Shown in pieces: positions 6,459 through 64,000 of a stretch of DNA of 64,000 nt (positions are counted from its first letter, which is position 1; every line of letters begins with the position of its first letter). The translations under genes and the position numbers were made by a program. Under the pieces are notes generated by a model. It was not told where the DNA came from and searched no databases. It saw only the letters and a list, made by a program, of their open reading frames with translations. Source of the DNA: an uncultured Elusimicrobia bacterium (GTDB taxonomy: Bacteria > Elusimicrobiota > Elusimicrobia > 2-02-FULL-39-32); the NCBI GenBank assembly GCA_964523525.1, contig CAZFYO010000003.1:92911-156910 (forward strand), in the 5' to 3' direction.

Positions 6459-7226
6459 ATGGCGATGATCGACGTCCAGGACCTGCATAAATCGTTCGGC
6501 TCCAAGGTTATACATAACGGCGTGACTTTCCAAGTCGAAGAGGGGGAGGTTCTGACCCTTATCGGAGGCTCCGGCAGCGGCAAATCCGTGCTGCTGAAGC
6601 AGCTGGTTGGGTTGCTTAAACCCAACTCCGGGACCATCACCATCGACGGAAAAGAGATCTCGCGGCTCGACGAGGATGAGTTACACAAAGTCCAAAAAAT
6701 GATAGGATATGTTTTCCAGGAAGCCGCGCTTTTTGATTCACTGACCGTCGGAGAAAACGTGGCTTTCGGCCTGCGCAATCTGATGGGCGTCGACAGCGAC
6801 GAAGCCCGCGGGATCGTGGAGGAAAAGCTGGCGCTGGTGGGACTGTCCGGCGCGGAGAACTTCAAGCCCGCGCAGCTGTCGGGCGGCATGAAGAAGCGCG
6901 TCGGCATCGCGCGCGCCATCGCGTTCACGCCCAAGATTTTGCTTTACGATGAGCCCACCACGGGCCTTGACCCCGTGATGTCCGACGTCATCAGCGACCT
7001 GATTTTGAAGCTCAAAAAAGAAACGGGAGTGACCTCCATCGCCGTCACGCACGACATGAAGTCCGCCTACAAGATTTCGAACCGCATCGCGATGCTCTAC
7101 GAAGGCAAGGTGCTTGAGACCGGCACCTCCGAACAGATGCAGCATTCGGCCAACCCTGTCGTCCGGCAGTTCATCTCCGGTTCCAGCGACGGGCCCATCC
7201 CCGTTCCCGACATGGAGACGGCTTGA
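6459..7226 (+). CDS. mlaF: ABC transporter ATP-binding protein, MlaF family
   Basis: Walker A (GGSGSGKS), ABC signature (LSGGMKKRVGIARA), Walker B (LLYDEPTTGLD). Confidence 0.85.
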   Translation: MAMIDVQDLHKSFGSKVIHNGVTFQVEEGEVLTLIGGSGSGKSVLLKQLVGLLKPNSGTITIDGKEISRLDEDELHKVQKMIGYVFQEAALFDSLTVGENVAFGLRNLMGVDSDEARGIVEEKLALVGLSGAENFKPAQLSGGMKKRVGIARAIAFTPKILLYDEPTTGLDPVMSDVISDLILKLKKETGVTSIAVTHDMKSAYKISNRIAMLYEGKVLETGTSEQMQHSANPVVRQFISGSSDGPIPVPDMETA

Positions 7227-8608
7227 ACCTCGAAACCAAGGTCGGATTCTTCGTCCTGCTCGGCCTGGCCATCCTGGCGGTCACCGTCATGAAGCTTTCC
7301 GACGTCCGGCTCGAGCGCCGCTATACAGTCTACATGGTTTTCCAGGACATTCAGGGGCTGAACGACAAGAGCCAGGTGCGGATCGCCGGGGTGGAAGTGG
7401 GCCAGGTGAAGAAGGTCGAGCTCGAAGAGGGCCGCGCGAAAGTCACCACCCAGATCAAGGGCGACGTTCCCATCTACGCCAACGCGGTCGTGCGCGTGAA
7501 GCTGATCGGATTGATCGGATCGCAATTTTTGGATCTGAACCCGGGAACGCCGGAGTCGCCGAAGCTGAAAGACGGCGATACGCTTTACGGCGCGCCGACC
7601 AAATCGTTGACCGATTTAATTGATAAGCTGAACGAGCTGATCGAAGGCAAGCCCGGGAAGCCCGGCATTGGCGACGACCTGAAGGCGACTGTTTCCAATC
7701 TGCGCAGCGTCACGGAATCCCTGAACTTCGCGATCGGCATGCAGCGCGACGAGATGAAAGGCATCGTCAAAAACCTCCATTCCTTCACCGTGGATCTGAA
7801 AGGCCTCGCGTCGGACCTGCACGAGATTTCCTCCAGCAAGAAAGCCGATATCGAAGCCTCCATCACCAAACTGCGATCGGTGCTGGAGCGCGTGGATGAA
7901 ATCATGGCCAAGGTCCAGCGCGGCGAAGGCGCCGTGGGTCGCCTGCTCGCGGACAAAGAAATGGGCGAAGAAGTGAAGAAGACCGTTTCCAATTTGAAAG
8001 ACACGTCCGAATCCGCGAAGGAAGTGCTGGGCCGCTTCACCAAGATCCGCTCCTTCTGGGAATTCCAGGGGCGCGCGGTGCCGGCGGCCGGCGTGGTTCG
8101 GGCGGACGGCGGCATCCGGCTTCAGCCGCGCGACCACAAGTATTATTACCTCGGCGTGTCGAACGCGGGCGACCGGAAAGACGAGTTTAAGACCGAGGGC
8201 GATTACGAGAAGAAAACCACGATCAACGCCCTGCTCGGCAAGGATTTCGGCCCCGTCACCGTGGAAATCGGCGCGGTGCGGTCTTCCGGCGGCCTCGGGT
8301 TCAAATATTATCCGTTCAAACCGTGGGTGGACCGGCGGAGCGCGAATCCCTGGCTTGAGAACATCGAGTTGAACGCCTACGCGTTCGACTTCCCGCGCGA
8401 CGAGATCCGCGGGCGCGCCGGCCGCGAGCGTCACTTCAAGGGCCCGCAGTACAACATCGGCGCCAAATACGGCGTGACGCGCTGGTTGAAAGTCGGCGCC
8501 AACGTGGAAGATCTGAGCGAAGTCCGGCAGTACAACGTCGCGACGCACCTGGTTTTCGAAGACCGCGATCTCGCCTATCTCTTCGGCTTCGTGAGTTTTG
8601 CCCGATAA
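7223..8608 (+). CDS. mlaD: MCE-domain protein (MlaD-like) with long C-terminal extension
   Basis: N-terminal TM helix then MCE domain; TTG start overlapping the mlaF stop; 461 aa, far longer than a canonical MlaD. Confidence 0.75.
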   Translation: MNLETKVGFFVLLGLAILAVTVMKLSDVRLERRYTVYMVFQDIQGLNDKSQVRIAGVEVGQVKKVELEEGRAKVTTQIKGDVPIYANAVVRVKLIGLIGSQFLDLNPGTPESPKLKDGDTLYGAPTKSLTDLIDKLNELIEGKPGKPGIGDDLKATVSNLRSVTESLNFAIGMQRDEMKGIVKNLHSFTVDLKGLASDLHEISSSKKADIEASITKLRSVLERVDEIMAKVQRGEGAVGRLLADKEMGEEVKKTVSNLKDTSESAKEVLGRFTKIRSFWEFQGRAVPAAGVVRADGGIRLQPRDHKYYYLGVSNAGDRKDEFKTEGDYEKKTTINALLGKDFGPVTVEIGAVRSSGGLGFKYYPFKPWVDRRSANPWLENIELNAYAFDFPRDEIRGRAGRERHFKGPQYNIGAKYGVTRWLKVGANVEDLSEVRQYNVATHLVFEDRDLAYLFGFVSFAR

Positions 8609-49354: not shown

Positions 49355-49406
49355 TCCGTTGAAGCCGCCCTCGGGCTTTGGTATCATATAAGACAACAGG
49401 TTGAAT

Positions 49407-49479
49407 GTGCCCGTAGCTCAGTTGGTAGAGCACTCGACTTTTAATCGAGTTGTCGAGAGTTCGAATCTCTCCGGGCACA
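49407..49479 (+). tRNA. tRNA-Lys (anticodon UUU)
   Basis: Cloverleaf folded by hand: acceptor stem GTGCCCG/CGGGCAC, D-arm GCTC-AGTTGGTA-GAGC, anticodon stem-loop CTCGA-CTTTTAA-TCGAG, T-arm GAGAG-TTCGAAT-CTCTC, discriminator A; 73 nt. Confidence 0.85.
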
Positions 49480-49523
49480 CCCTTTAACCTTCCTCCTCCC
49501 CAAAGAAAAAAACGCGCAGGATA

Positions 49524-51184: not shown

Positions 51185-51231
51185 AAAAGAGAAAGGCCTG
51201 ATCGCTAACGCGATTACGGCCTTTCTCTTTT
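51185..51231. terminator. Bidirectional intrinsic-terminator-like hairpin between the NmrA-like gene and aceK
   Basis: 14-bp stem (AAAAGAGAAAGGCC / GGCCTTTCTCTTTT) with inner ATCGC/GCGAT stem; U-rich 3' flank on both strands; the aceK stop codon lies in the loop. Confidence 0.5.
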
Positions 51232-52974
51232 GAGGCGGGACGGTTCCTTGTAGGGGAGTATTTCCGCGATTTCGCCGGCTGCGAGGCGCTTCTGGAGGTC
51301 CTGCCAGTAGCGCACCGTGAAGAGGTCGCCGTGGAGCGGGTCGAAGACCTTGCGCATCCTCGGGTCGAGTCCGATGAACGTCCTGAACTCCTGGGGAAAG
51401 ATGTCGGCATCGCCCACGTAGAACCAGGGTTCGCTTTCCAGCTCCTCGCTTTCGTCCCGCGCCGCCGGGACCTCGCGGATATTGCAGTCCGTCAGCAGGC
51501 ATAGCTCATCGTAGTCGTAAAAGACCACCCGTTCGTTGCGGGTCACGCCGAAATTCTTCAGCAAAATGTCGCCCGGAAAGATGTTGGCCTTGGCCATGTC
51601 CTTGATGGCGCTCCCAAAATCCACCGCCGCATCCCGCGCCAGCTCTTCCGGCGCTTCCTTCAAGTAAATGTTGAGCGGCACGACGCGGCGCTCCGTATAG
51701 AGATGGCGGATGATCACGGTGTCGCCGGAAATCGAGACGGATTTGGCGGCCTGTTGAGTGAGCTCCTGCAGAAGCTCTTCAGTGAAGCGGCTCTTATCGA
51801 ACTCCAAATGTTCAAATTCTTGCGCATCCACAAGGCGCCCGGCGCGGTCGTGCTGGAACACGAGGTGGTACTTGGCCAATACCTGCTGGCGCGACGTGCG
51901 TTTTGTGTAACTGAATTTGTCTTTAATGATTTTGAAAACTACGTCATAAGATGGCAGCTCGAACACGGTCATCACCATGCCCTTTTCGCCCGGGGAGATG
52001 CGGAATTTATCTTTTGATTCCTGAAGGTGGCGGTAGAGGTCGCGGTAGAGCTCGGTTTTTCCGTGCTTGTTGAATCCGATGGAAATGTAGAGCTCGGCTT
52101 TGGGCTTTTGCGGCATTATAGACTGCAGGAAATCGACCAGCTCCCGGGGCTTTTTGACCTTCACGTGAAAATAGGAGCGCGTGAAGCTGAATACGATGCT
52201 GACTTCGGAATCATTGAGCAAAACCGCGTCCACCAGGATCTGGCCCGCAGGGTTGCGGAGCGCCAACACCAGCGGCAGTTCGCCTTTGGCGGCGCGGATT
52301 TTACCGACGATAAATGCGCCGTTGCCGCGATAAAAGACGGGCTTGATCACGTCGATCTGTTCGAACTTTGCCGAGCCGAAACGGGATTGGAGCTGCTGTT
52401 CAATGCGCCGCGCGCACAGTTCCGCGTCTCCGCCGATATCTTCGAATGGCGCGTTGAATTCGTAGCGTTTCAGAAGCTCTATCAAAAGGTTCGGCAGGGG
52501 CCCGTTGCTGGGATAGGAACGGTAAATGGGTTTTTCGCTCTGGATCGGCGGCGTATCGAGCTCGGAGTCGAGATACTCCGCGCCGGGCTCGGTGCCAATC
52601 ACCACCATGACCTTGCGCAGGGTGGAGTTGTAAAACGTTTTGGCCAGTTCGATATCCTGCCGCGCCGCTACGAGAGCGGTAAAATTCATTTTAGCCTGCG
52701 ACCAGAGGCGGCTGTCGTTGTGTCCGCTGCCGACCAGCTCCTTGACCTTGGGGATCAGCTGGTTGATGATCTTGGTATAGAGGTCGAGGCGCTCGATGGC
52801 GTCGCGCTGCGCGCCGGTCCAGTCGCACTTCTCGAAACGGGTGCGGGCCCGGGAGGTGATCTCCGTAAATTTTTCCTGATAGATGTTGAACGCTTCGAGG
52901 ATGAGCGCGGCGCAGCCGGCGGCGGCGGCCGCGCGGGCGGCGGGGTCGGAGGAGGAGGACGGTTCGCGGCTCAT
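51214..52974 (-). CDS. aceK: Isocitrate dehydrogenase kinase/phosphatase
   Basis: AceK-family similarity over 586 aa (…NIYQEKF…, kinase-like C-terminal region); divergent from aceB. Coordinates are taken from the ORF track; my own base indexing disagreed by 1 nt near 52.92 kb. Confidence 0.85.
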   Translation of the reverse strand: MSREPSSSSDPAARAAAAAGCAALILEAFNIYQEKFTEITSRARTRFEKCDWTGAQRDAIERLDLYTKIINQLIPKVKELVGSGHNDSRLWSQAKMNFTALVAARQDIELAKTFYNSTLRKVMVVIGTEPGAEYLDSELDTPPIQSEKPIYRSYPSNGPLPNLLIELLKRYEFNAPFEDIGGDAELCARRIEQQLQSRFGSAKFEQIDVIKPVFYRGNGAFIVGKIRAAKGELPLVLALRNPAGQILVDAVLLNDSEVSIVFSFTRSYFHVKVKKPRELVDFLQSIMPQKPKAELYISIGFNKHGKTELYRDLYRHLQESKDKFRISPGEKGMVMTVFELPSYDVVFKIIKDKFSYTKRTSRQQVLAKYHLVFQHDRAGRLVDAQEFEHLEFDKSRFTEELLQELTQQAAKSVSISGDTVIIRHLYTERRVVPLNIYLKEAPEELARDAAVDFGSAIKDMAKANIFPGDILLKNFGVTRNERVVFYDYDELCLLTDCNIREVPAARDESEELESEPWFYVGDADIFPQEFRTFIGLDPRMRKVFDPLHGDLFTVRYWQDLQKRLAAGEIAEILPYKEPSRLKRERP

Positions 52975-53062
52975 GCTATTTCTTATCAGGAATGGCCCGT
53001 TTAATCAAGAGGCAGAAACGAGCCGAAAAAGGCGTGGCAAGTGCGTTGCGTCTCGATGTCCG

Positions 53063-53102
53063 GCGGAAAAAAATAAACTGAAATTTCCGCTTGAAATTTT
53101 CC
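53063..53102. promoter_or_regulatory. Candidate operator in the aceK-aceB divergent intergenic region
   Basis: Inverted repeat GCGGAAA-N14-TTTCCGC (53063-53090) plus direct repeat TGAAATTTCC / TGAAATTTTCC (53079-53102), overlapping a -35-like TTGAAA about 35 nt upstream of the aceB ATG. Confidence 0.3.
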
Positions 53103-53130
53103 TTAACTTCATTAGAGTTAGAGAGCCATT

Positions 53131-54732
53131 ATGCCAAACGACCCCTATTCCGCCCTCGGAGTCCGGTTCACGGAACCGGTCGCGCCGGACCAGCAAAGCA
53201 TCCTTTCGGAGGCCGCGGTCTCCTTTTTAGCCAAACTCGTCCGCGAATTCGGGCCAAGGCGCGCGGAGCTGCTGCGTAAACGCACCGAACGGCAGATGCG
53301 GATTGACGACGGCCTGAGGCCTTCATTTCTGCTGGAAACCCACGGCGTGAGGGAAGGAAACTGGACCTGCGCTCCCATCCCGAAGGATTTGATGGACCGC
53401 CGGGTTGAGATCACCGGTCCCACCGACCGCAAGATGATCATCAACGCGCTCAATTGCGGCGCCAACGTCTTCATGGCGGACTTTGAGGACTCGAACGCTC
53501 CCACCTGGAAGAACATGATCCAGGGCCAGATCAACCTGCGCGACGCGGTCCGCGGCAAAATCGATTTTACCAGCCCCGAGGGCAAGGAATATAAGCTTAA
53601 ACCCAAAACCGCGACCCTGATGGTCCGGCCGCGCGGCTGGCACCTCGAAGAAAAGCACGTGCTTGTCGACGGAAAACCGGTCTCGGCTTCACTTTTTGAT
53701 TTTGCGGTCTTCTTCTTCCACAACGCGCAGGCGCTCATCGATAAAGGCACCGGCCCTTACTTTTATCTGCCCAAAATGGAGAGCCATCTGGAAGCGCGGC
53801 TCTGGAACGACGTATTTTTGCGCGCTCAGGACGAGTTGAAGATTCCGCGCGGCACGATCCGCGCGACCGTGTTGATCGAAACGATCCTGGCGGCCTTCGA
53901 GATGGACGAAATCCTCTATGAGCTGCGCGACCATTCCGCCGGGCTCAACTGCGGGCGATGGGACTACATCTTCAGCTTCATCAAGAAGTTCTGCGCCTAT
54001 CCCGATAATATATTCCCCGACCGCGCCCAGGTCGGCATGACCACCCATTTCCTCCGTTCCTATTCCAAACTGCTCATTCAGACCTGCCACCGGCGCGGCA
54101 TCCACGCGATGGGCGGCATGGCGGCGCAGATTCCCATTAAAAACAATCCCGCGGCCAACGACGCGGCCATGGCCAAGGTGCGGGCCGACAAGGAACGCGA
54201 AGTCACCGACGGCCATGACGGCACCTGGGTGGCGCATCCCGACCTCGTGGGCATCGCCAAAGAGATTTTTGACAAACATATGAAGGGCCCGCATCAAATT
54301 GATAAAAAAATCACCGATCTGAAGGTGACGGCCGAGGATTTATTGATGGTTCCCAAGGGCGATATCACCGAAGCAGGGCTGCGCACCAACATCGACGTGG
54401 GTGTGGCGTATCTCGAAGCCTGGCTGCGCGGACAGGGCTGCGTTCCCATCTACAATTTGATGGAAGACGCCGCGACCTCCGAGATTTCTCGGGCGCAGGT
54501 CTGGCAGTGGATCCATCACCGGGCCAAAATGACCGACGGGCGGATGGTGACCGCCGAGCTGTACCGTTCGCTGCTGAAGGAAGTCATTGAAGCGGTGCGC
54601 TCGCATCTGGGCCAGGAAAAATTTGAGCAGAGCAAATTCGCCTTGGCCAGCCTTCTTTTCGAAAAGATGGTGACGGCCGAACACTTCCCGCAGTTTCTGA
54701 CGCTGGAAGCCTATGGCAAACTCGAGGGATAA
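53131..54732 (+). CDS. aceB: Malate synthase A
   Basis: Malate synthase A family similarity across 533 aa (…[22 protein letters not shown]…[40 protein letters not shown]…). Confidence 0.9.
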
Positions 54733-54736
54733 CTCC

Positions 54737-56035
54737 ATGAACGAATCACAGCGGATCGCGCAGGACTGGAAAAGAAATCCCCGTTGGAAAGGAATCGTTC
54801 GCAATTATTCGCCTGCCGATGTACTGCGTTTGCGCGGGTCCATGAAGATTGAGCATACGCTCGCGCGGCGCGGAGCGGAAAAATTTTGGAAGCTGCTGCA
54901 TTCGGAGCCCTACATTCACGCTTTGGGCGCCATGACGGGCAACCAGGCCGTCGAGATGGTGCAGGCGGGGCTGAAAGCGATCTATTTGAGCGGCTGGCAG
55001 GTTGCCGCCGACGCCAACAATACGGGGCAGATGTATCCCGACCAGAGTTTATATGCCGTGAGCTCGGTGCCCGAGAAGGTGCAGGCGATCAACCGCGCGT
55101 TGCAGCGCGCCGATCAGGTTTGGCACCTCGAGCGGAAGTCCAAGATCGACTGGTTTGCGCCCATTGTGGCCGATGCCGAGGCTGGGTTTGGCGGGGCGTT
55201 GAATGCCTACGAGCTCATGAAGGCGATGATCGAAGCGGGCGCCGCCGCGGTTCACTTTGAAGACCAGCTCGCCAGCGAAAAAAAGTGCGGACACATGGGC
55301 GGCAAAGTCCTCGTGCCCGCGCAGGAGTTTATTCGCAAACTCGAGGCGGCGCGCCTCGCTTCCGACGTGCTCGGGGTCCCGACTTTGATCGTGGCGCGCA
55401 CGGATGCCGATGGAGCCAAGCTTTTAACCAGCGATATCGACGAGCGCGACCAGGAATTCATGACCGGCGAACGGACCGCGGAAGGGTTTTACCGCATCAA
55501 GGCCGGCGTGGACTGCGCCATCGCGCGCGGCGTCGCCTACGCGCCCTACGCGGACCTGGTCTGGTGCGAAACCTCCAAGCCCGATCTGCATGACGCCAAA
55601 AAATTCGCGGAAGGCGTGCTCAAAAAGTATCCCCGCAAGCTGCTGGCCTACAACTGTTCGCCTTCCTTCAACTGGAAATTGAACCTGAGCCCGTCGCAAA
55701 TCGCAAAATTCCAACAGGAAATCGGCCGGATGGGTTATAAATTCCAGTTTGTGACGCTCGCGGGCTTCCACGTGCTGAACGCGGGCATGTTTGAGCTGGC
55801 CTCCGGCTACAAAAAGGCCGGCATGGCCGCCTACTCCAAATTCCAGGAAAAAGAATTCGAGATGGAAAAGAAACAGGGATTTGCCGCCGTCAAACATCAG
55901 AGTTTCGTCGGCGCGGGCTATTTCGATGAGATTCAAAACGTACTGACCGGCGGCCAATCGTCCACAAAGGCGCTCAAAGACTCCACCGAGGAAGACCAGT
56001 TCAAGCCGGGTCAGAAGAAAGGCCGGCGCAAGTAA
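54737..56035 (+). CDS. aceA: Isocitrate lyase
   Basis: Isocitrate lyase active-site region (KKCGHMGGK) and family similarity; start at ATG 54737, 5 nt after the aceB stop. Confidence 0.9.
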
Positions 56036-57169
56036 GTGACGTCAAAAATTTCTTCCTTTAACCCTCCTATCCGCACCCTCCTGGGGCCCGGACCCTCCAA
56101 CCTGCACCCGCGCGTTCTGGCCGCGATGGCCAAACCCACGATTGGGCACCTCGATCCCGAGTTTATCCGCATGATGGACGAGCTGCAGCTGCTTCTGCGC
56201 GACGCTTTTCAGACCCGGAATGAAATGACGATGGTCGTCTCCGGCCCCGGGTCGGCCGGAATGGAAACCTGCTTCGTGAATTTGATCGAACCCGGCGAGA
56301 AAGTGATCGTCTGCCAGAACGGCGTCTTCGGAGGCCGGATGAAGGAGAACGTCGAACGCGCGGGCGGAACCTGCGTTTTGATCGAAGACCCCTGGGGCCG
56401 CGCGGTGGACCCGCAAAAGCTCGAGGACGCGCTCAAGAAAAACCCCGACGCGAAACTGGTCGCTTTCGTCCACGCGGAAACGTCCACGGGCGCGCTGAGC
56501 GACGCGAAGACCCTGGCGCAGATCGCGCACAGCGCGAATTGCCTCGTGATCGCCGATACCGTGACATCTTTGGGCGGCGTTCCGCTTCTGGTGGACGAGT
56601 GGGAGCTGGACGCGGTCTATTCCGGCAGCCAGAAGTGCCTGTCCTGCGCTCCGGGACTGTCGCCCATCACGTTCAGCGAGCGGGCCATGAAGAAAGTGAA
56701 GGGACGCTCCGGCAAGGCGCGCAGCTGGTTCCTGGACCTGAACCTCGTCACGGCCTATTGGAACGCCGGGACAGGGGCCGGCGGCAAGCGGGTCTATCAC
56801 CATACCGCTCCGGTCAACGCTCTTTACGGGCTGCACGAGGCGCTGGTTCTCCTGCAGGAAGAGGGGATCCAAAATTCCTGGGCTCGCCATCAAAAAAATC
56901 ATGAAATTTTGAAAAAAGAGCTGGCCGCGCTGGGCATGACGTTCTTCGTGCCCGAGAAAGAGCGGCTGCCGCAATTGAACGCGGTCGTGATTCCCGAGGG
57001 AAAAGACGACGCGCAGATCCGTTCCCGCCTCCTGAACGAGTTCGGCATCGAAATCGGCGCGGGGCTGGGCGTGCTCGCCGGAAAAATCTGGCGTATCGGC
57101 CTGATGGGCTACTCCTCCAACCCCGAAAACGTCAGGCACCTTAAAGAAGCGCTGAAGAAACTGATTTGA
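56036..57169 (+). CDS. Class V aminotransferase (alanine/serine--glyoxylate aminotransferase-like)
   Basis: PLP fold-type I class V features (…FVHAETSTGAL…VDEWELDAVYSGSQKCLSCAPGLS…); GTG start abutting the aceA stop. Confidence 0.8.
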   Translation: MTSKISSFNPPIRTLLGPGPSNLHPRVLAAMAKPTIGHLDPEFIRMMDELQLLLRDAFQTRNEMTMVVSGPGSAGMETCFVNLIEPGEKVIVCQNGVFGGRMKENVERAGGTCVLIEDPWGRAVDPQKLEDALKKNPDAKLVAFVHAETSTGALSDAKTLAQIAHSANCLVIADTVTSLGGVPLLVDEWELDAVYSGSQKCLSCAPGLSPITFSERAMKKVKGRSGKARSWFLDLNLVTAYWNAGTGAGGKRVYHHTAPVNALYGLHEALVLLQEEGIQNSWARHQKNHEILKKELAALGMTFFVPEKERLPQLNAVVIPEGKDDAQIRSRLLNEFGIEIGAGLGVLAGKIWRIGLMGYSSNPENVRHLKEALKKLI

Positions 57170-57197
57170 TGGCACGCAAAATGAAGGTGAAATCTTG

Positions 57198-58292
57198 ATG
57201 GCGCGCGAAATCCGGCCCGCTCTGAGAACGGGCGTCAGCGTCAAAGCCCAGCTGATCGCCCGGCTGCGCTTCAGCCACGTCCTCACGCTTTCCGAGAAGG
57301 AATTTGCCCGGATGATCAGCGACATCGAGAATGATCCGCTTTTCCAGAAATTTCTATACCCCAAAGATTCCGGACCCAAGGCCATTTTCAAGCGGCGCGT
57401 CCCGCACCAGCGCCTGTCCCCCGCCTTCTACGAAGCGAAGGACGAGATCAGCGCCGGCGCGGAAGGCGTGGACGTTGAGAATATCCTGGAGCAGCACCGG
57501 GGAGTGATCGATTTGATCCGCAAAATCGGCCAGGAGTCCTTTGAAAAGCATTTCCTCTACAAGGAGGGGACCGAATCCGCCGCTTCCATCGCCGAGAAGT
57601 GCGGGGTTTTCCCGGAGGACGTGATGAGGGTTCAGGCGGCGGTCACCCAGCTTTCCGTGCATTCGGAGTTTTTCAATCCGACCACACTGCCGGCCGAAAC
57701 GGGCCTGCGCTACACCCTGATCGCCCGGATCGACCCCGATGAACAGGGCTCGTTCTGGATCTCGTTCACGTCGCCGCACCTGGCGGCGGGGCGTTACGTC
57801 ATCAATCCGGAGCGCGTGGACGCGCTCAAAAAAGATTTGGCCGCCTCCGAAAGAAAAGCGGTCACGAACCTGATTCAGAAGCTGGAGCTCATCAACCTGC
57901 GGCAGGACACCCTGCACAAGATGCTGCAGGAAGTCCTGGTCCGGCAGAAAGGCTATCTGAGCTCCAACGACGCGTCGCGCCGCCTGCCGCTTTCCCAGCG
58001 CGACATGGCCGCCCACCTCGGCGTTGCCGCCTCCACGGTTTGCCGGGCGCTCTACGGAAAAAGCGTGCTCGCTCCCTGGGGCCGGGAAATGCCGCTCAAG
58101 GATTTCTTCGTCAACAAGAAAAACGCCGCCGAGGAGTGGGTCCGGCAGATCCTCGAGGAAATGCCCGAGGAAAAAAGGGACCAGTTGAGCGACAATGATT
58201 TGCGCGGCCTCCTCGCCCAGCGTTTTCGGTGCAAGGCGTCCCGCAGGTCCGTCAATCTCTATCGCCGCGCGGTTGAACAAAAATCAAAGTAG
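57198..58292 (+). CDS. rpoN: Compact sigma-54-like factor (RpoN family), about 365 aa
   Basis: Region-I-like N-terminus (VLTLSEKEFARMISDIENDPLFQK), sigma-54 HTH (LPLSQRDMAAHLGVAASTVCRAL…LKDFF) and RpoN-box-like C-terminus (SRRSVNLYRRA). Shorter than typical RpoN. Confidence 0.65.
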   Translation: MAREIRPALRTGVSVKAQLIARLRFSHVLTLSEKEFARMISDIENDPLFQKFLYPKDSGPKAIFKRRVPHQRLSPAFYEAKDEISAGAEGVDVENILEQHRGVIDLIRKIGQESFEKHFLYKEGTESAASIAEKCGVFPEDVMRVQAAVTQLSVHSEFFNPTTLPAETGLRYTLIARIDPDEQGSFWISFTSPHLAAGRYVINPERVDALKKDLAASERKAVTNLIQKLELINLRQDTLHKMLQEVLVRQKGYLSSNDASRRLPLSQRDMAAHLGVAASTVCRALYGKSVLAPWGREMPLKDFFVNKKNAAEEWVRQILEEMPEEKRDQLSDNDLRGLLAQRFRCKASRRSVNLYRRAVEQKSK

Positions 58293-58466: not shown

Positions 58467-61400
58467 GTGAATCGGGGCCGCAAAGCGGTCGCCTGCGCTC
58501 TCGTGCTGTCCCTTTTACAGTCCGTGCTGCTCGCCCCGGCGGTTCAGGCGGGGTTGTGGCAGGACCGCCGCGAAGCGGCGAAGTCGCTTCCCTTGCTGGC
58601 GCAGCTGCCGGCGGACCTGGCCCCTATGGGTCCGTCGAACTGGCAGATGGACGCGCCAGCCAGCCCGCTCGCTTCGAGCCTGCAGAATTTCGCCGCTCCT
58701 TCCTGGCTCCGAAACCTTCCCCTCCAATACGCCAGTCTGAGGCGTTTGTCATTCCCGCCCGGCTGGAACCCTTCCGACCCCATCGTCATCCATATCCAGG
58801 ACGTGCACCAGAACGCCGAGGCGCAGGAGAACATCAGCCTGACGCTGCGTGAGCTGATCCGCGGGGGCCGGTTGAACCTGGTCGCGCTCGAAGGCTCGTT
58901 TGAAACGATGGATTTCAGCCGGTTCCGCTCCTACGAGGACGCGGATTCGGTGCGAAAGGTAACGGACTATCTGCTGCGCGAGGGGAAAATTTCCGGCGCG
59001 GTGCATGCCGCGTTCGCCAGCGAGAAGGCCCCGCCCAAATTTGCCGGCGTCGATGACCGCGAGCACTATTTCGCGCATGTCGATGCATACAAGAATTCGC
59101 GGGGCGCGGCGCAGGAAGTGAAAAAGGCTCTGGCGTCCCAAATGCAGGCGCTGGAAACGGAGAAAGCCGCGAAACTGAACCCCGATCTCAAAGCATTTGA
59201 CGCCGCCGTGCGCGATTTCCGCGCTGAAAAAACGAAGCTGGGCGCTTACGTCCAGTTTTTGACGGCCCGAAGCAAGAAGACCCTTCCCGAGGTCCAGAAA
59301 TTCCTGAAAGCCTTCAAAGCCGAATCGAGCCTCGATTTCGCGCGGGCGGAAAAAGAGCGCGGCGAGATCATCAACAAGCTCGTGAAGAACCTCGGCCGCG
59401 ATCAGGTCAACGGACTTTTGAATGCCAGCCTCTCTTATCGCGTGGGCCGAACGCGCCACGGCGATTTCTACGTCTATCTCCGCGATCTTTGCGCCAAGAA
59501 CGGCGTCGAGTTTGCAAAGTACGCCGCGATGGACGCCTATCTCCAATATGTTTTGTTGTCGGACAGCATCAACGCCGAGAAGCTGCTGCATGAAGTGGAT
59601 TCAATGGAAGCGGCGGGCTATCAGGCGCTCGCCAAAACCCCGCAGGAAACCATCCTGATTAAAAAATCCAAATGGCTTCATCTGGCGGACAAGCTGGTGG
59701 ATTACTCGCTGTCTCCCAAAGAGTGGAAGGAATATCACTCGATGCGGGACTTGGGAGATTCCATGCTGCGCGATCTGGAGCCTTTCGAGGGATTCTTTAA
59801 AGAGGCCCTGATTCGCGATGAGGCGATGGCCGCCAACTTCATCCGCTCCATCGGGACGGATAGGAATGCGGCGGCGGTGCTGGTGACCGGCGGATTCCAT
59901 TCCGAGGGCATTGAAGAGCGTCTGAAACGCAAAGGGATCGCGGTGTTGACGCTGGCACCCAAAATCAGCAAGGTCGAGACGAAAGACGGCGCGGCGTACC
60001 TCAACGTTTTCACGCAGGAAAAAACCCCGCTCGAAAAACTCTTCCAGGGAGAAAAGCTTTTCGTCACTCCGGAAGTGTTTTCACATTCCACGGAATTGTC
60101 TGCTGCGGCCTTTATCGCCCTCTTCAAACGGACAGTTGAGTCAGCCAACGACGCATTCCACCGGCTGAGCGGTTCAAAAGGCGCCGCCTACAATATCATT
60201 TCGGTTGAGCTCACTGAGGGCATCGTCGGTACATTGGAAGGGCCGCAGGGCTCGGAGCGCTTCAAAATCCAGGCCAACGATGAATCCATCGAAAGCGTTC
60301 AATTCATTCCGTTTTCAGGCATGCGCGGCGTCATGGGTCTTTTCCTGGGGAAGGCCAAAGCCATGGGCCTGTACGGCGAAAAATTATGGACGTTTGTCAG
60401 CCGGATCAATTCCGCGCCGATGTCGGTCAAAATGGTGATGGCCGCCGCGGTCGCCCTGCCGCTGTCGTTCCTGTTCAATGAAATGGCGCCCGGACTGGTG
60501 ATGATGGCCACGGTCGGAAGCTCGATGGGGCCCGGCGAGACCGGAAACGAAGCGCGCGCCAAAGTGCTCTGGCACATCGGCTTCGCGCCCGTGCCGAACG
60601 CGCCGGAACGGACCCTTTTTCTGCGAAGCGAAGCGGAGGCCGCCCGCCTCATGCCGGTTCCCCCGGCGGACACGTGGGTCGAAGTCCGTTACCTGGGAGA
60701 GCGGTCCGAATTCCTGCGCATGTCCATGTACCGGCGCGATCCGGGTGAGACCGAGGACCAGTTTTGGGGACGGCACATGCGCGATTCCGAGGAACGGAAA
60801 CTTTTCGACCTGTACCTCACCATCGATCCGTCGTTTTCCGACACGGTCTGGCTGAGTCCGGGCAAGGCGTATCCGGCGCTCCGCGAATTGTTCGGCCCCG
60901 GCGGCTATTCCAGCGAGGCCTGGATACGCGACACGCTCCTGCCCTGGCTGACCGAGCGCGGGTTCGTGGAAGTAAAAGTCGGCCTGCAGGAATCCAGCGA
61001 TAAGCTTTTCAAATCCCTGGGGTTCACGAAATTCGGCGGAGGGACGATGCGAAAAGTCCTGAACGCCAAGTTAAGGCGGCGTTCGGCGCGTTCTCTGACT
61101 CGGGCACCCGCGCCCTGGACGCTCGAAGAGCGGAGGAAGGACGCCATCCTGCGGATATTGAACGGTAGGACGGAGTCGGCCAACATTGTCCAGCTGTACG
61201 CGGAATTCGCGAAGGACCCGGCCTTTGAAGACGCGACCCAATCCGAGTTCGCCGACCTGGTGATGCGGACGCCCGCGATCCTTGACCACCCGATGCTGAG
61301 CCGGTCCCGGAGCGGGGCGTGGCACGTAGGTGATATGGCTCAAATCGTGGCCAAACAGCTGGTGTCCTCAAGCGACCGGCTTGTTTCCAGGTTTACGGCC

Positions 61401-64000
61401 GATTTAGCAGAACCCCTGAGGCAGGTTATTCTCTCGGCCCTTGCGAAATCAAGAGAAGCCGGGAGTGGAGGATATCAGACTTTTATCGATAACTTAACTT
61501 TTGAGGATCGTCCGATAAGCGAAGAAGAATATATGGATATGCTCTATACGTGGTCTGAAAAGTCCACTGTTGAATTTAACAGCGATCTTCAAAAAAGAGT
61601 TGAGGACAGCATTGTCAGGCAATACCAGCGCAATGGGTCAAAAGTAGAGTCGAGGAGAGGGGCTCAGGCGCGAGTATCCGGCAAGGGAAATTATTCGATG
61701 ACGGTTCTGATCAGCCAGCAGGGTTATCCCGCTCTGACATTCAACATTCTCTTGTCCAACAGAAGGAGGTTTTTCGCGGATCCGGACAACCATATTCTCG
61801 CCCAGCATCGTCCTATATCGTTCGGCGCTTATAATTACTTGCTGCTCCTCCAATCAAGGGTTTTTGATCTGGATGACGCGATACTTGATCTTGTTATCAA
61901 GCATGAGATTGAAGAGATGATGGTAAAACACCGGTCCAGGAACCGGATCGGCGCGGCGGAGGCTCACCGCCTTGCGCTTCAATCCTCGGGGGATGAGCGC
62001 TCTGTTGGAAAAGTGCAGGCCGCGCTTCGCGCACAGAATCAAAAAGACGTTTCCGTCCGCAGGGTGCAAAAATTCCTGGGATCCGCGATCGACGAATCCT
62101 TCATCCGGGAAAATGTGGATGCGCTGGAATTGGTGTGCCTGGACGCTGACGACTATCTGGAACTCCTGCCTTCGGATTATTTGGAGGTTAAGAAATATGC
62201 AGCTAACGTCAGTCCGATTCATTTGATGCTGGATTTGATATTTCTAAATTGGAAAGACCCCGCGGAGCCTGCCGAGTTCATCGCGAATTTGCCCCGCATT
62301 CAGCGGCTTTTGGGGAAGGATTGGTTTACGCACAATTGGACCAATCTGGTAACGCAGTACAGCCAGATGGGCGCGGAGCAATTCAATGGAATTTTTGAGC
62401 GTCAGAGGAACGATCCTTGGATCAGGAATAAAAGCCGGGACTGGCTGAGAGAGTATTTTCTGGACATTCCCAATATCCGCCCCATGAAGGAGGAAAAGGA
62501 CATTGAAGCCGTTTTTGAAGGCGGCCTGGAAAACAGCGGATCCGAATTTGACGACTTAAGATCCGCGATCCGGTCCTATCCCGATATATTGACCGAATCC
62601 ATCAAGGCAATTTACAGGGTTCAAGCGGTCGATTTCAGGACGGATGACATCGTTAAGGTAGGGGTCAAAAAAATCGGCGACGGCACCAGCAACGCGGTTT
62701 TCCTGCTGACTGAAATCGTTTTGTCCAATGGCAGGGTGGTTTCCCAATATCCGATCGTCATGAAGGTCAGCAAGGAATCGACCTATGATCTGACCCATCA
62801 GGGAATGCAGCAGATCGTTCAGGCCGCGCGGGAGCTTGCCGCTCAGGATCCTCCGCTGTATCCCAGGATCGGGGGGCAGTGGATTTTTGACTATCTGCAT
62901 GAGTTTTGGATTGTGAGCGAAGAGTTTGTCCCGGGTCCCACGCTTTGGAACGAGATAGCAGGAGTCCGGATGGATCCCGATCTCGGCGATGCCGAAAAGG
63001 AAAGAAGGATCATCGATCTCCTTGCCAGGCAGTTCGACGTGTATCTTCGAGCCTGGAAAACGTGGAACGAACGTTCCGGGGCCCCGCATTGGATCGAAAG
63101 CAAATTTATCGGCGATCCCAATTCTCTTAATATCATCGGAAGAATGATTGTTGACCTGAACTCGCTGCAGGAGTCCATGACACCGGCCGAAATCGTCGAA
63201 CAGATGATACCGGAGGATGTTCTGGCGGATTCGTCTCCACTGTATTCAATATTTGTCCGGCTGGCCCAGGATATCATGGGCGGAGACAGCGGCCGCCAGT
63301 TTCTGTACAGCTCGCACAATCTCAAAATTTTGAGCGCGCTGGAAGAGTATGAGGAATCCGAGGCCGAAAATGACGGCGGCATTGAGCCCGTTAACTCTCT
63401 CGCCTACTGGATCGCCGATCTGGCGCGCTTGAGCCCGTCCAAAGCGAGAGCGGTCGGCCTCGCGGGGCTGGCCGTGGAAATCCCGGCGCTGATCGCGGCC
63501 GGACTGGTGTTGCCGTTCTTCGGCATGGCAGCCTTCCTGGGAGTCTTCGCGGGCGCCCACATCCTCCTGGAAAAAATTTCTGCCGGCCGCCAGAACCGCG
63601 GCCCCCCGACTTTACGCCAGACGGCCGCCCAAATCATCGCGTTCCTTCCGTATCTGCTGATTTCCATCGCAGGAATTTTTTCCGACTCCATTTTAAGTCA
63701 GTATTTCCTTCCCGCTCTCACCGCGGTCTTCGTCCACGCGAAATTTGACCTGCCACTGATCACCCGGCGTTTCCCCAAAGCCGTTTTCAGCCCTGCCGCG
63801 GCCGCCGGGCCTGCGATGCGCCTGTCGGGACAGGGATTGACGGCCGCGCAGCACGTCGTGGTCAACGAAGCGGTCGCAGGATTTTTCAACCGTCCGGTGA
63901 CGGCAAGTGAGCGGCGCATGCTGATCCCAAGAACCCAGGACTACCGCGCTCTGGATCCCACCGGCGCGCTGGCGGCGGAAGGCGTCCGCATCTATGCCCT
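58467..64000 (+). CDS. Giant secreted/membrane multidomain protein, 5' portion (frame open to the window end; more than 1,840 codons in window)
   Basis: Frame 0 has stops at 58377-58379 and 58410-58412 and then none to position 64000 (checked by hand at several coordinates). Not in the track, presumably because no stop lies in the window. Strong SD AAGGAAAGGAGA at 58411-58422; candidate starts CTG 58428 or GTG 58467; signal-peptide-like N-terminus (NRGRKAVACALVLSLLQSVLLAPAVQA). Confidence 0.75.
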   Translation, partial: MNRGRKAVACALVLSLLQSVLLAPAVQAGLWQDRREAAKSLPLLAQLPADLAPMGPSNWQMDAPASPLASSLQNFAAPSWLRNLPLQYASLRRLSFPPGWNPSDPIVIHIQDVHQNAEAQENISLTLRELIRGGRLNLVALEGSFETMDFSRFRSYEDADSVRKVTDYLLREGKISGAVHAAFASEKAPPKFAGVDDREHYFAHVDAYKNSRGAAQEVKKALASQMQALETEKAAKLNPDLKAFDAAVRDFRAEKTKLGAYVQFLTARSKKTLPEVQKFLKAFKAESSLDFARAEKERGEIINKLVKNLGRDQVNGLLNASLSYRVGRTRHGDFYVYLRDLCAKNGVEFAKYAAMDAYLQYVLLSDSINAEKLLHEVDSMEAAGYQALAKTPQETILIKKSKWLHLADKLVDYSLSPKEWKEYHSMRDLGDSMLRDLEPFEGFFKEALIRDEAMAANFIRSIGTDRNAAAVLVTGGFHSEGIEERLKRKGIAVLTLAPKISKVETKDGAAYLNVFTQEKTPLEKLFQGEKLFVTPEVFSHSTELSAAAFIALFKRTVESANDAFHRLSGSKGAAYNIISVELTEGIVGTLEGPQGSERFKIQANDESIESVQFIPFSGMRGVMGLFLGKAKAMGLYGEKLWTFVSRINSAPMSVKMVMAAAVALPLSFLFNEMAPGLVMMATVGSSMGPGETGNEARAKVLWHIGFAPVPNAPERTLFLRSEAEAARLMPVPPADTWVEVRYLGERSEFLRMSMYRRDPGETEDQFWGRHMRDSEERKLFDLYLTIDPSFSDTVWLSPGKAYPALRELFGPGGYSSEAWIRDTLLPWLTERGFVEVKVGLQESSDKLFKSLGFTKFGGGTMRKVLNAKLRRRSARSLTRAPAPWTLEERRKDAILRILNGRTESANIVQLYAEFAKDPAFEDATQSEFADLVMRTPAILDHPMLSRSRSGAWHVGDMAQIVAKQLVSSSDRLVSRFTADLAEPLRQVILSALAKSREAGSGGYQTFIDNLTFEDRPISEEEYMDMLYTWSEKSTVEFNSDLQKRVEDSIVRQYQRNGSKVESRRGAQARVSGKGNYSMTVLISQQGYPALTFNILLSNRRRFFADPDNHILAQHRPISFGAYNYLLLLQSRVFDLDDAILDLVIKHEIEEMMVKHRSRNRIGAAEAHRLALQSSGDERSVGKVQAALRAQNQKDVSVRRVQKFLGSAIDESFIRENVDALELVCLDADDYLELLPSDYLEVKKYAANVSPIHLMLDLIFLNWKDPAEPAEFIANLPRIQRLLGKDWFTHNWTNLVTQYSQMGAEQFNGIFERQRNDPWIRNKSRDWLREYFLDIPNIRPMKEEKDIEAVFEGGLENSGSEFDDLRSAIRSYPDILTESIKAIYRVQAVDFRTDDIVKVGVKKIGDGTSNAVFLLTEIVLSNGRVVSQYPIVMKVSKESTYDLTHQGMQQIVQAARELAAQDPPLYPRIGGQWIFDYLHEFWIVSEEFVPGPTLWNEIAGVRMDPDLGDAEKERRIIDLLARQFDVYLRAWKTWNERSGAPHWIESKFIGDPNSLNIIGRMIVDLNSLQESMTPAEIVEQMIPEDVLADSSPLYSIFVRLAQDIMGGDSGRQFLYSSHNLKILSALEEYEESEAENDGGIEPVNSLAYWIADLARLSPSKARAVGLAGLAVEIPALIAAGLVLPFFGMAAFLGVFAGAHILLEKISAGRQNRGPPTLRQTAAQIIAFLPYLLISIAGIFSDSILSQYFLPALTAVFVHAKFDLPLITRRFPKAVFSPAAAAGPAMRLSGQGLTAAQHVVVNEAVAGFFNRPVTASERRMLIPRTQDYRALDPTGALAAEGVRIYA

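What the first reader, a model, noticed from the sequence alone, without database searches (positions are those of the whole stretch)
62670..63165. Protein-kinase-like (APH/ePK-like fold) motif set inside the giant protein
In the low-GC segment the translation reads …KKIGDGTSNAVFLLTEIVL…YPIVMKVSKE…EEFVPGPTLW…FIGDPNSLNIIGRMIVDLNSL…. The order and spacing resemble a glycine-rich nucleotide loop, a VxK lysine, a hinge, a D-x4-N catalytic-loop-like element and a downstream Asp of protein-kinase-like phosphotransferases. The residue before the catalytic-loop Asp is not His, so it could be an atypical kinase or a pseudokinase.
Basis: inference. Interest (0 to 1): 0.6.

Follow-up and report, generated by a model that had tools for sequence, protein, structure and literature searches.

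The report
Divergent kinase-like domain in giant protein
A stretch of a very large membrane protein is a real but extremely divergent relative of protein kinases; it belongs to a tiny family with no database name and still carries the residues needed to bind ATP and transfer phosphate.

Summary
They are more than a chance pattern. The surrounding ~290-aa domain (aa 1357-1645, 62535-63401) has three true relatives among 1.84 billion cluster representatives, all in large Omnitrophota proteins.

In two of the three relatives, the second Gly of the glycine loop, the aC Glu, D-x4-N and the downstream Asp are conserved, and the beta3 Lys is conserved in all three. The third relative has lost all of them except the Lys.

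Standard HMM searches (Pfam, NCBIfam, PDB sequences) find no kinase. Two AlphaFold models are low-confidence, and their fold searches are inconclusive. Profile-profile comparison does connect the family to kinases. Against a Ser/Thr protein-kinase profile it gives 82-90% probability (E 1e-5 to 1.5e-6), aligned in register from the glycine loop through the Lys, aC and hinge into aD. Among 48 real control families, the top three matches are APH/SrkA and ABC1 kinases.

The C-lobe is only motif-level similar. The His of HxD is Ile, and the N-to-D hairpin is 8 residues against at least 11 in 362 reference kinases.

Verdict: a new, very rare and divergent protein-kinase-like family, probably catalytically competent here. 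Its substrate is unknown.

The parts
58467..63998 (+). Giant ORF of at least 1844 aa that runs off the window end; host of the domain
   Evidence: No stop codon from 58413 to the window end. N-terminal homologues align from residue 1-13, which supports the GTG 58467 start.
58479..58556 (+). N-terminal hydrophobic signal peptide or anchor (aa 5-30)
   Evidence: Kyte-Doolittle scan, peak 2.24. The sequence RGRK-hydrophobic-AVQA-G looks like a Sec signal; this is inference.
58479..60146 (+). Conserved N-terminal module (aa ~5-560), the only part shared with 53 Elusimicrobiota/Omnitrophota giant proteins; weak ChaN/Tiki match
   Evidence: 21-46% identity and always query residues ~5-560. PF04187 matches at aa 417-480 with E 0.0057, below the curated cut-off.
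60417..60488 (+). Predicted transmembrane segment (aa 651-674)
   Evidence: Hydropathy scan.
62535..63401 (+). Kinase-like domain as delimited by family conservation (aa 1357-1645)
   Evidence: phmmer and hmmsearch envelopes; alignment A1.
62667..62702 (+). Glycine loop KKIGDGTSNAVF (G1404, G1406) at the predicted b1-b2 turn
   Evidence: Aligned to the ePK GxGxfGxV with high posterior. G1406 is conserved in 3 of 4 members. AF2 secondary structure places it at the b1-b2 turn.
62763..62765 (+). K1433, equivalent to the b3 (VAIK) lysine, PKA K72
   Evidence: Invariant in all 4 family members. Aligned to the ePK, ABC1 and APH lysine. Lies in the predicted b3 strand.
62832..62834 (+). E1456, candidate aC glutamate (PKA E91)
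   Evidence: Conserved in 3 of 4 members, Gln in P0056. Lies in the predicted helix after b3. Aligned to the aC region of SrkA, APH and ePK.
62907..62945 (+). b5-hinge segment WIVSEEFVPGPTL with invariant W1481 and E1485
   Evidence: Aligned to the ePK/APH 'vmE..G..L' hinge. It follows the predicted b5 strand.
63105..63131 (+). Catalytic-loop-like FIGDPNSLN (I1548 in place of the HxD His; D1550; N1555)
   Evidence: F, I and P are invariant; D and N are conserved in 3 of 4 members. There is no profile-level support. It lies about 10 residues after the predicted aE helix.
63132..63155 (+). Short b6-turn-b7 hairpin IIGRMIV ending in D1563 (DFG-Asp equivalent, here D-L-N)
   Evidence: D is conserved in 3 of 4 members. 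The N-to-D spacing is 8, against at least 11 in 277 ABC1/APH and at least 12 in 85 ePK sequences. AF2 predicts a bridge pair across the turn in P0054. The low-confidence extended hhalign puts this Asp on the DFG Asp.
63444..63698 (+). Cluster of predicted transmembrane segments (aa 1660-1702 and 1719-1744) just after the domain
   Evidence: Hydropathy scan. The region aa 1643-1768 resembles two regions of giant P0004.

Best explanation
Residues ~1357-1645 of the giant protein form a highly divergent protein-kinase-like (PKL) domain. It belongs to a tiny family that Pfam and NCBIfam do not describe. The N-lobe is recognisably kinase: a b1-GxG-b2 hairpin, the b3 Lys (K1433), the aC Glu (E1456), b4-b5 and a hinge. 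After two helices (aD and aE) comes a compressed catalytic core. It has F-I-G-D1550-P-x-x-x-N1555, a tight two-residue-turn hairpin, and D1563 in the DFG-Asp position, followed by an all-helical C-terminal part with no activation segment or APE motif. Because K, E, D, N and D are all present, the domain most likely binds Mg-ATP and acts as a phosphotransferase, or as an ATPase in the manner of UbiB-type enzymes. The all-helical C-lobe and the missing H158/H164/D220 network fit a small-molecule or lipid substrate better than a protein, but the substrate is unknown. Shown: membership of a conserved domain family, N-lobe homology to kinases, and conservation of the key residues. Inferred: C-lobe equivalence, nucleotide binding, catalysis and cytoplasmic location.
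Confidence: 0.58

Rival explanations
1. A kinase-derived but non-catalytic domain. It has the PKL fold and is used as a nucleotide-binding or purely structural and regulatory module inside the giant protein.
For: The H158/H164/D220 network is missing, the HxD His is Ile, and the catalytic hairpin is unusually short. One family member (P0056) is clearly degenerate, so the fold is retained without the active site. The C-lobe has no detectable profile similarity to active kinases.
Against: In the window protein, P0054 and P0055 the full K/E/D/N/D set is retained across 25-33% overall identity, which argues for selection on catalysis. [quoted passage not shown]
Confidence: 0.22
2. Only the N-terminal ~130 residues are a kinase-type ATP-binding lobe. 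The helical C-terminal half is an unrelated domain, and its D-x4-N...D pattern is not a kinase catalytic loop.
For: All significant profile signal lies in A1 columns 44-167. The C-half gives nothing. The spacing is outside the kinase range. Fold-search hits for model 2 are generic helical bundles.
Against: The conserved F-I-x-D-P-x3-N-I-hairpin-D follows the predicted aD and aE helices exactly where the catalytic loop follows aE in kinases. D, N and D are lost together with the N-lobe G and E in P0056. No other conserved acidic or amide residues exist in that region.
Confidence: 0.11
3. Chance resemblance: an unrelated domain of unknown fold whose conserved residues happen to mimic kinase motifs.
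For: No HMMER-level hit to any kinase family or structure. Fold searches are not significant. The motif regex was defined post hoc.
Against: hhalign gives E 1e-5 to 1.5e-6 against the ePK profile, with clean separation from 42 non-kinase families and from reversed and shuffled controls. Three further kinase families rank 1-3 of 48 and align in register.
Confidence: 0.09

Closest known systems
Eukaryotic-type Ser/Thr protein kinases (Pfam Pkinase, PF00069)
   Same: This is the best profile-profile match. GxGxxxxV[FY], the b3 Lys, aC, b4-b5, the hinge and the start of aD align in register. The order D-x4-N then Asp is also shared.
   Different: No hmmscan hit. There is no HRD His/Arg (F-I-G-D instead), no DFG Phe-Gly (D-L-N/D), no activation segment, no APE, and no aF Asp. 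The N-to-D spacing is 8 against at least 12. The C-terminal part is all helical.
APH / SrkA(YihE)-type small-molecule and stress kinases (Pfam APH, PF01636)
   Different: Below Pfam detection. The His of the HxDxxxxN motif is absent. The hairpin is shorter. The SrkA HMM gives the domain only 4.3 bits, rank 30 of 3508 background ORFs.
ABC1 / UbiB / COQ8 atypical kinases (Pfam ABC1, PF03109)
   Same: F-I-[GA]-D-P-x3-N-I resembles F-H-A-D-P-H-P-G-N-I. Both have N-terminal helices before b1. There are weak in-register hhalign matches on G-loop/Lys (scores 23-31, P 0.002-0.03). A true ABC1 domain is a module in the related giant P0051.
   Different: There is no KxGQ motif, no Ala-rich loop, and no long aC insertion. 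ABC1 HMMs do not rank family members above background. There is no Pfam hit.
Multi-enzyme giant proteins of Omnitrophota ('Archaeovorins', bioRxiv 10.1101/2023.11.21.568195)
   Same: Both are very large membrane-associated proteins of Omnitrophota-type bacteria that string together HEAT repeats and metabolic-enzyme domains such as PGM/PMM. The relatives of this giant carry PGM/PMM, transaldolase, ICL/malate synthase, HD, GNAT, ABC1 and HEAT_2.
   Different: The proteins here are 1-3 kaa, not tens of thousands of residues. They share a specific ~550-aa N-terminal module with a weak ChaN/Tiki match. That paper, as far as I searched it (kinase, ChaN, Tiki, N-terminal), describes neither that module nor this kinase-like domain.

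Membership tests
Protein-kinase-like (PKL) superfamily | Significant sequence-profile similarity to a member family | tested here: met
   hhalign of A1 against 45 Pkinase domains gives prob 82.4%, E 1e-5, 96 columns. Against 92 domains it gives prob 90.2%, P 1.5e-6. Controls are clean. The match covers the N-lobe to aD only.
Protein-kinase-like (PKL) superfamily | ATP-binding key residues G52, K72, E91 (Kannan 2007, PMC1821047) | tested here: met
   G1406 (3 of 4), K1433 (4 of 4) and E1456 (3 of 4), each in the expected predicted secondary-structure element and in aligned profile columns.
Protein-kinase-like (PKL) superfamily | Catalytic residues D166, N171, D184 | tested here: inconclusive
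   D1550, N1555 and D1563 are present in the right order after the predicted aE helix and are conserved in 3 of 4 members. There is no profile-level alignment support, and the N-to-D spacing is 8 against at least 11-12.
Protein-kinase-like (PKL) superfamily | H158 / H164 / D220 hydrogen-bond network | tested here: not met
   The H164 position is an invariant Ile (I1548). No conserved His lies in the predicted aE (W1530 and W1533 are conserved instead). No invariant Asp follows D1563. Kannan et al. note that such losses occur in bona fide families.
Protein-kinase-like (PKL) superfamily | Bilobal fold with the nucleotide cleft between the lobes | tested here: inconclusive
Pfam Pkinase (PF00069) | hmmscan score above the gathering threshold; HRD, DFG and APE motifs | tested here: not met
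   No hit at E<=10 for any of the 4 members. The motifs read F-I-G-D and D-L-N, with no APE.
Pfam APH (PF01636) | hmmscan score above the gathering threshold; HxDxxxxN motif | tested here: not met
   No hit. The His is replaced by Ile.
Pfam ABC1/UbiB (PF03109) | hmmscan score above the gathering threshold; KxGQ motif and Ala-rich loop | tested here: not met
   No hit. No KxGQ in the N-terminal helices, and the loop is G-D-G-T-S-N-A. ABC1 HMM ranks are 136-383 of 3508.
Any kinase | ATP binding and phosphotransfer | not testable with these tools
   Requires biochemistry.

The most novel reading that the evidence does not exclude
This is the founding example of an undescribed kinase-like family with a minimal catalytic core: no HxD His and an 8-residue N-to-D hairpin. 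It would be one interchangeable enzyme 'cargo' among many in a class of Elusimicrobiota/Omnitrophota membrane giants that share an exported ChaN/Tiki-like head. In at least one relative (P0054) the only hydrophobic segment is at the N-terminus, directly before the domain, so there it could be exported. It could then act outside the cell on a host or prey, or carry out non-canonical chemistry such as the AMPylation or glutamylation done by SelO and SidJ.
Probability: 0.15. Interest if true: 0.65.

Novelty: new variant of a known kind. Interest (0 to 1): 0.42.

Why it matters
The find adds a new, extremely rare branch to the protein-kinase-like superfamily: four members among 1.84 billion cluster representatives. 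It shows how far the catalytic core can be trimmed, with no HxD His, none of the H158/H164/D220 network, and the shortest N-to-D hairpin among 362 compared kinases. It is also a case where routine annotation (Pfam, NCBIfam) and AlphaFold with fold search all fail, and only profile-profile comparison against custom-built profiles recovers the relationship. The domain sits in a class of giant, modular membrane proteins of poorly known phyla whose biology is open. A testable enzymatic module inside one of them gives an experimental entry point.

Tried and rejected
- Pfam and NCBIfam hmmscan of the whole giant, the region, and all four family members up to E 10: no kinase family.
- phmmer and hmmsearch against PDB sequences with the region, the family profile, and the P0054 and P0055 domains: only noise such as RecX, eL32 and NuoL.
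- Word-indexed homologue search with the region and with A1: nothing.
- Search for more family members: two loci in the genome-contig scan (both Omnitrophota, matching P0054 and P0056), none in the metagenome-contig scan, and none among the 53 giant homologues or the six-frame ORFs of the window.
- BLASTP and hhalign of A1 against single kinase sequences (UbiB, SrkA, WaaP, WaaY, P0051 ABC1, an APH): indistinguishable from 22 non-kinase controls. Single-sequence templates are too weak.
- Reciprocal HMMER with SrkA and ABC1 HMMs: only the SrkA HMM places the window domain in the top 1%.
- C-lobe-only hhalign: no signal.
- A viral-contig scan for ABC1 relatives by protein alignment and a RIO-kinase motif scan found nothing.
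- Exact-protein look-ups of the window's isocitrate lyase and malate synthase found no source contig, so the organism and the rest of the gene could not be recovered.
- The antisense ORFs 62556-63089 and 62891-63382 were treated as spurious. The + frame is conserved at protein level in three other genomes.
Full report
**Observation.** The frame containing 62670 is open from 58413 to the end of the window. With the GTG at 58467 as start, it encodes at least 1844 residues. The quoted peptides are there exactly. In this numbering:
- the glycine loop is K1401-F1412 (G1404, G1406)
- the VMK lysine is K1433
- the hinge Glu is E1485
- the FIGDPNSLN element is F1547-N1555 (D1550, N1555)
- the downstream Asp is D1563

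A permissive ordered regular expression for the whole motif set matches once in the protein and in none of 5000 shuffles. That pattern was written post hoc, so it counts for little. The region is only modestly GC-poor, 52.2% against 57.6%.

**Host protein.** Fifty-three homologues, 1-3 kaa long, come from Elusimicrobiota and Omnitrophota MAGs and metagenomes. They share only residues ~5-560 with the window protein. This head follows a signal-peptide-like segment and has a weak ChaN/Tiki match. Downstream the homologues differ completely. Per precomputed or verified Pfam hits, they carry ICL plus malate synthase, PGM/PMM, transaldolase, HD, GNAT, AAA+, M48, ABC1 and other domains. Hydropathy predicts transmembrane segments at aa 651-674 and at 1660-1744. 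The kinase-like region lies between them, so a cytoplasmic location is plausible but only inferred.

**The domain family.** The word-indexed search found nothing for the region. An exhaustive phmmer over 1.84 billion cluster representatives found three true relatives:
- P0054 (E 2.9e-35)
- P0055 (E 5.6e-12)
- P0056 (E 8.1e-8)

A fourth hit, P0057, is a repeat-protein artefact. All three true relatives are annotated as hypothetical proteins. P0054 and P0056 are from Omnitrophota MAGs, and P0055 is from a JGI metagenome contig. Each places the domain in a different multidomain context. No further members turned up in the genome or metagenome scans or among the giants.

Alignment A1 has 25 invariant columns. 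K1433 is invariant. G1406, E1456, D1550, N1555 and D1563 are identical in the window protein, P0054 and P0055. In P0056 they are all replaced (D, Q, N, S, I), while the hydrophobic core, the Lys and the hinge Glu are kept. P0056 loses 17 of the 42 three-way-identical columns overall, so the joint loss of 5 of the 6 key positions is only mildly significant (about 0.04). Qualitatively it is still the pattern of a degenerated active site.

**Standard tests for a kinase fail.** No Pfam or NCBIfam family matches any member, even at E 10. PDB sequence searches with single sequences or the profile return only noise.

AlphaFold2 with the four-sequence alignment gives low confidence:
- window domain: pLDDT 56.8
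- P0054 domain: pLDDT 61.3

The predicted secondary structure does follow the kinase order b1-b2-b3-aC-b4-b5-aD-aE. The GxG falls at the b1-b2 turn, the Lys in b3, the Glu in the helix after b3, and the hinge Glu just after b5. The F-I-x-D-P-x3-N element lies about 10 residues after aE, with a bridge pair across the short hairpin.

Fold searches are inconclusive:
- Foldseek on model 2 finds nothing below E 0.4.

**Profile-profile comparison.** No profile library was available, so I built kinase-family alignments by scanning public contigs for catalytic-loop DNA patterns and clustering the encoded ORFs. This gave ABC1, SrkA/APH and Ser/Thr-kinase sets, with labels verified by Pfam on representatives.

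Single-sequence templates were useless. Family profiles gave the following:
- ABC1 and SrkA sets scored 23.0-30.7 (P 0.002-0.033), against 13-18 for the reversed query. Each aligned the same A1 columns, G-loop to Lys, in register. One of 120 column shuffles reached the ABC1 score.
- At low stringency, the SrkA alignment runs co-linearly through G-loop, Lys, aC Glu, the 'vP' proline, hinge, D..N and D.
- Clustering all 3867 background ORFs gave 48 real families. Against these, A1's top three matches are SrkA/APH (30.6), ABC1 (23.7) and APH (23.5). The best non-kinase family scores 19.6. Six of the 48 families are kinase families, so the chance that the top three are all kinases is about 0.001.
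- Reversed A1 and 12 shuffled queries never reproduce that ranking.

The decisive result came from the Ser/Thr-kinase profile:
- score 47.4, probability 90.2%, P 1.5e-6
- with the session's own comparison tool on 45 of those sequences: probability 82.4%, E 1e-5, 96 aligned columns from the glycine loop through the Lys, aC, b4-b5 and hinge into aD
- controls: reversed 14.5, and 100 shuffles at most 22.1
- the same kinase profile separates all six known kinase-like families (37.6-94) from all 42 non-kinase families (19.6 or less), which puts A1 inside the kinase range

**What remains unproven.** The C-terminal half alone has no detectable profile similarity to any kinase family. Three things set it apart:
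- the position of the HxD His is an invariant Ile
- equivalents of H158 and D220 are missing
- the N-to-D distance is 8 residues, against at least 11 in 277 ABC1/APH and at least 12 in 85 Ser/Thr kinases

The turn residues (GR, DK, GD, HN) are typical of tight two-residue b-turns, so a compressed b6-b7 hairpin is structurally reasonable; this is inference. Kannan et al. 2007 list G52, K72, E91, P104, H158, H164, D166, N171, D184 and D220 as the shared PKL residues. They report that all but one of these has been lost in some family (PMC1821047). Having seven of ten is therefore compatible with membership.

**Interpretation.**

| Reading | Probability |
|---|---|
| Kinase-like domain with an intact catalytic set, likely active as an ATP-dependent phosphotransferase or ATPase | about 0.58 |
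| Kinase-derived but non-catalytic module | about 0.22 |
| Kinase-type N-lobe joined to an unrelated helical domain | about 0.11 |
| Chance resemblance | about 0.09 |

I put the kinase-like nature of at least the N-lobe at about 0.9. Catalytic competence is inferred from the retained residues. The all-helical C-terminal part, without an activation segment, resembles small-molecule kinases (APH, SrkA, ABC1) more than protein kinases, but the substrate is unknown.

The domain cannot be filed under Pkinase, APH or ABC1, because each family's defining score and motifs were tested and not met. It is best described as a new, very small family within the kinase-like superfamily. Its setting is the modular giant proteins of Omnitrophota-type bacteria, as described for much larger proteins in bioRxiv 10.1101/2023.11.21.568195. 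Bona fide ABC1 and APH modules also occur there. A literature search found no paper linking Omnitrophota to kinase-like or pseudokinase families.

Noticed in passing
window 58467-60146 and homologues P0001-P0053: The giant belongs to a family of 1-3 kaa Elusimicrobiota/Omnitrophota proteins that share only a ~550-aa N-terminal head. The head has a signal-like segment and a weak ChaN/Tiki PF04187 match. Behind it the proteins carry completely different enzyme 'cargo' (ICL/malate synthase, PGM/PMM, transaldolase, HD, GNAT, AAA+, M48, ABC1, DnaJ and others). Even 46%-identical heads have unrelated tails.
   Followed up: partly
window 51214-58292; L484 697-9921: A glyoxylate-shunt cluster lies directly upstream of the giant gene: aceK (51214-52974, minus strand), malate synthase (53131-54732), isocitrate lyase (54713-56035) and a class-V aminotransferase (56036-57169). 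In homologue P0035 (3074 aa), malate synthase and ICL domains lie inside the giant protein itself. This suggests a recurrent link between the giant family and these enzymes.
   Followed up: partly
window 57195-58292 (+): The 365-aa ORF immediately upstream of the giant matches only the sigma-54 DNA-binding domain (PF04552, aa 230-361). It is shorter than a full RpoN, judging by length from my own knowledge.
   Followed up: no
window 61467-62966: This 1.5-kb stretch, covering the upstream part of the kinase-like domain and the sequence before it, is 47-52% GC against 57.6% for the window. The only relatives of the domain come from 40-44% GC Omnitrophota contigs. Horizontal acquisition of this cargo segment is possible.
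   Followed up: no
window 63393-63770 (aa 1643-1768): The transmembrane cluster after the domain is similar to two separate regions of giant P0004 (aa 2226-2329, E 1e-10; aa 1392-1522, E 6e-8). It is a repeated membrane module with no Pfam match.
   Followed up: no
L001 (Omnitrophota JAUSEX010000037.1) 1-20291: P0054 lies in a head-to-tail row of large same-strand ORFs (1910+, 397, 196, 632, 1002, 1240 and 1266 aa). The next ORF fuses an NAD-dependent epimerase/dehydratase with an APH kinase domain. An IS200-type Y1 transposase sits at 7171-7761.
   Followed up: partly
P0055 aa ~2240-2300; P0054 aa 441-937: Downstream of the kinase-like domain, P0055 has a G-S-x-x-R-G-D...D-I-D-F motif resembling a Pol-beta-type nucleotidyltransferase; I saw this by eye only. 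P0054 has weak HEAT, papain-like-toxin and SAM-methyltransferase matches, all below the Pfam cut-offs.
   Followed up: no
P0054 aa 1-28; P0055; P0056 aa 158-181: The predicted membrane context of the domain differs between relatives. In P0054 the only hydrophobic segment is at the N-terminus, directly before the domain, so the domain may be exported. P0055 has no hydrophobic segment. P0056 has one upstream.
   Followed up: partly
window 49406-49482 (+): tRNA-Lys(UUU) is the only Rfam or ARAGORN RNA hit in the window.
   Followed up: yes
viral contig loci L127-L246: The HGDLHPGN pattern scan of IMG/VR returned mostly one large cluster of ABC1-like kinases. Of 90 ORFs, 79 fell in this cluster, many from giant-virus (GVMAG) contigs. 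I had expected APH enzymes.
   Followed up: no
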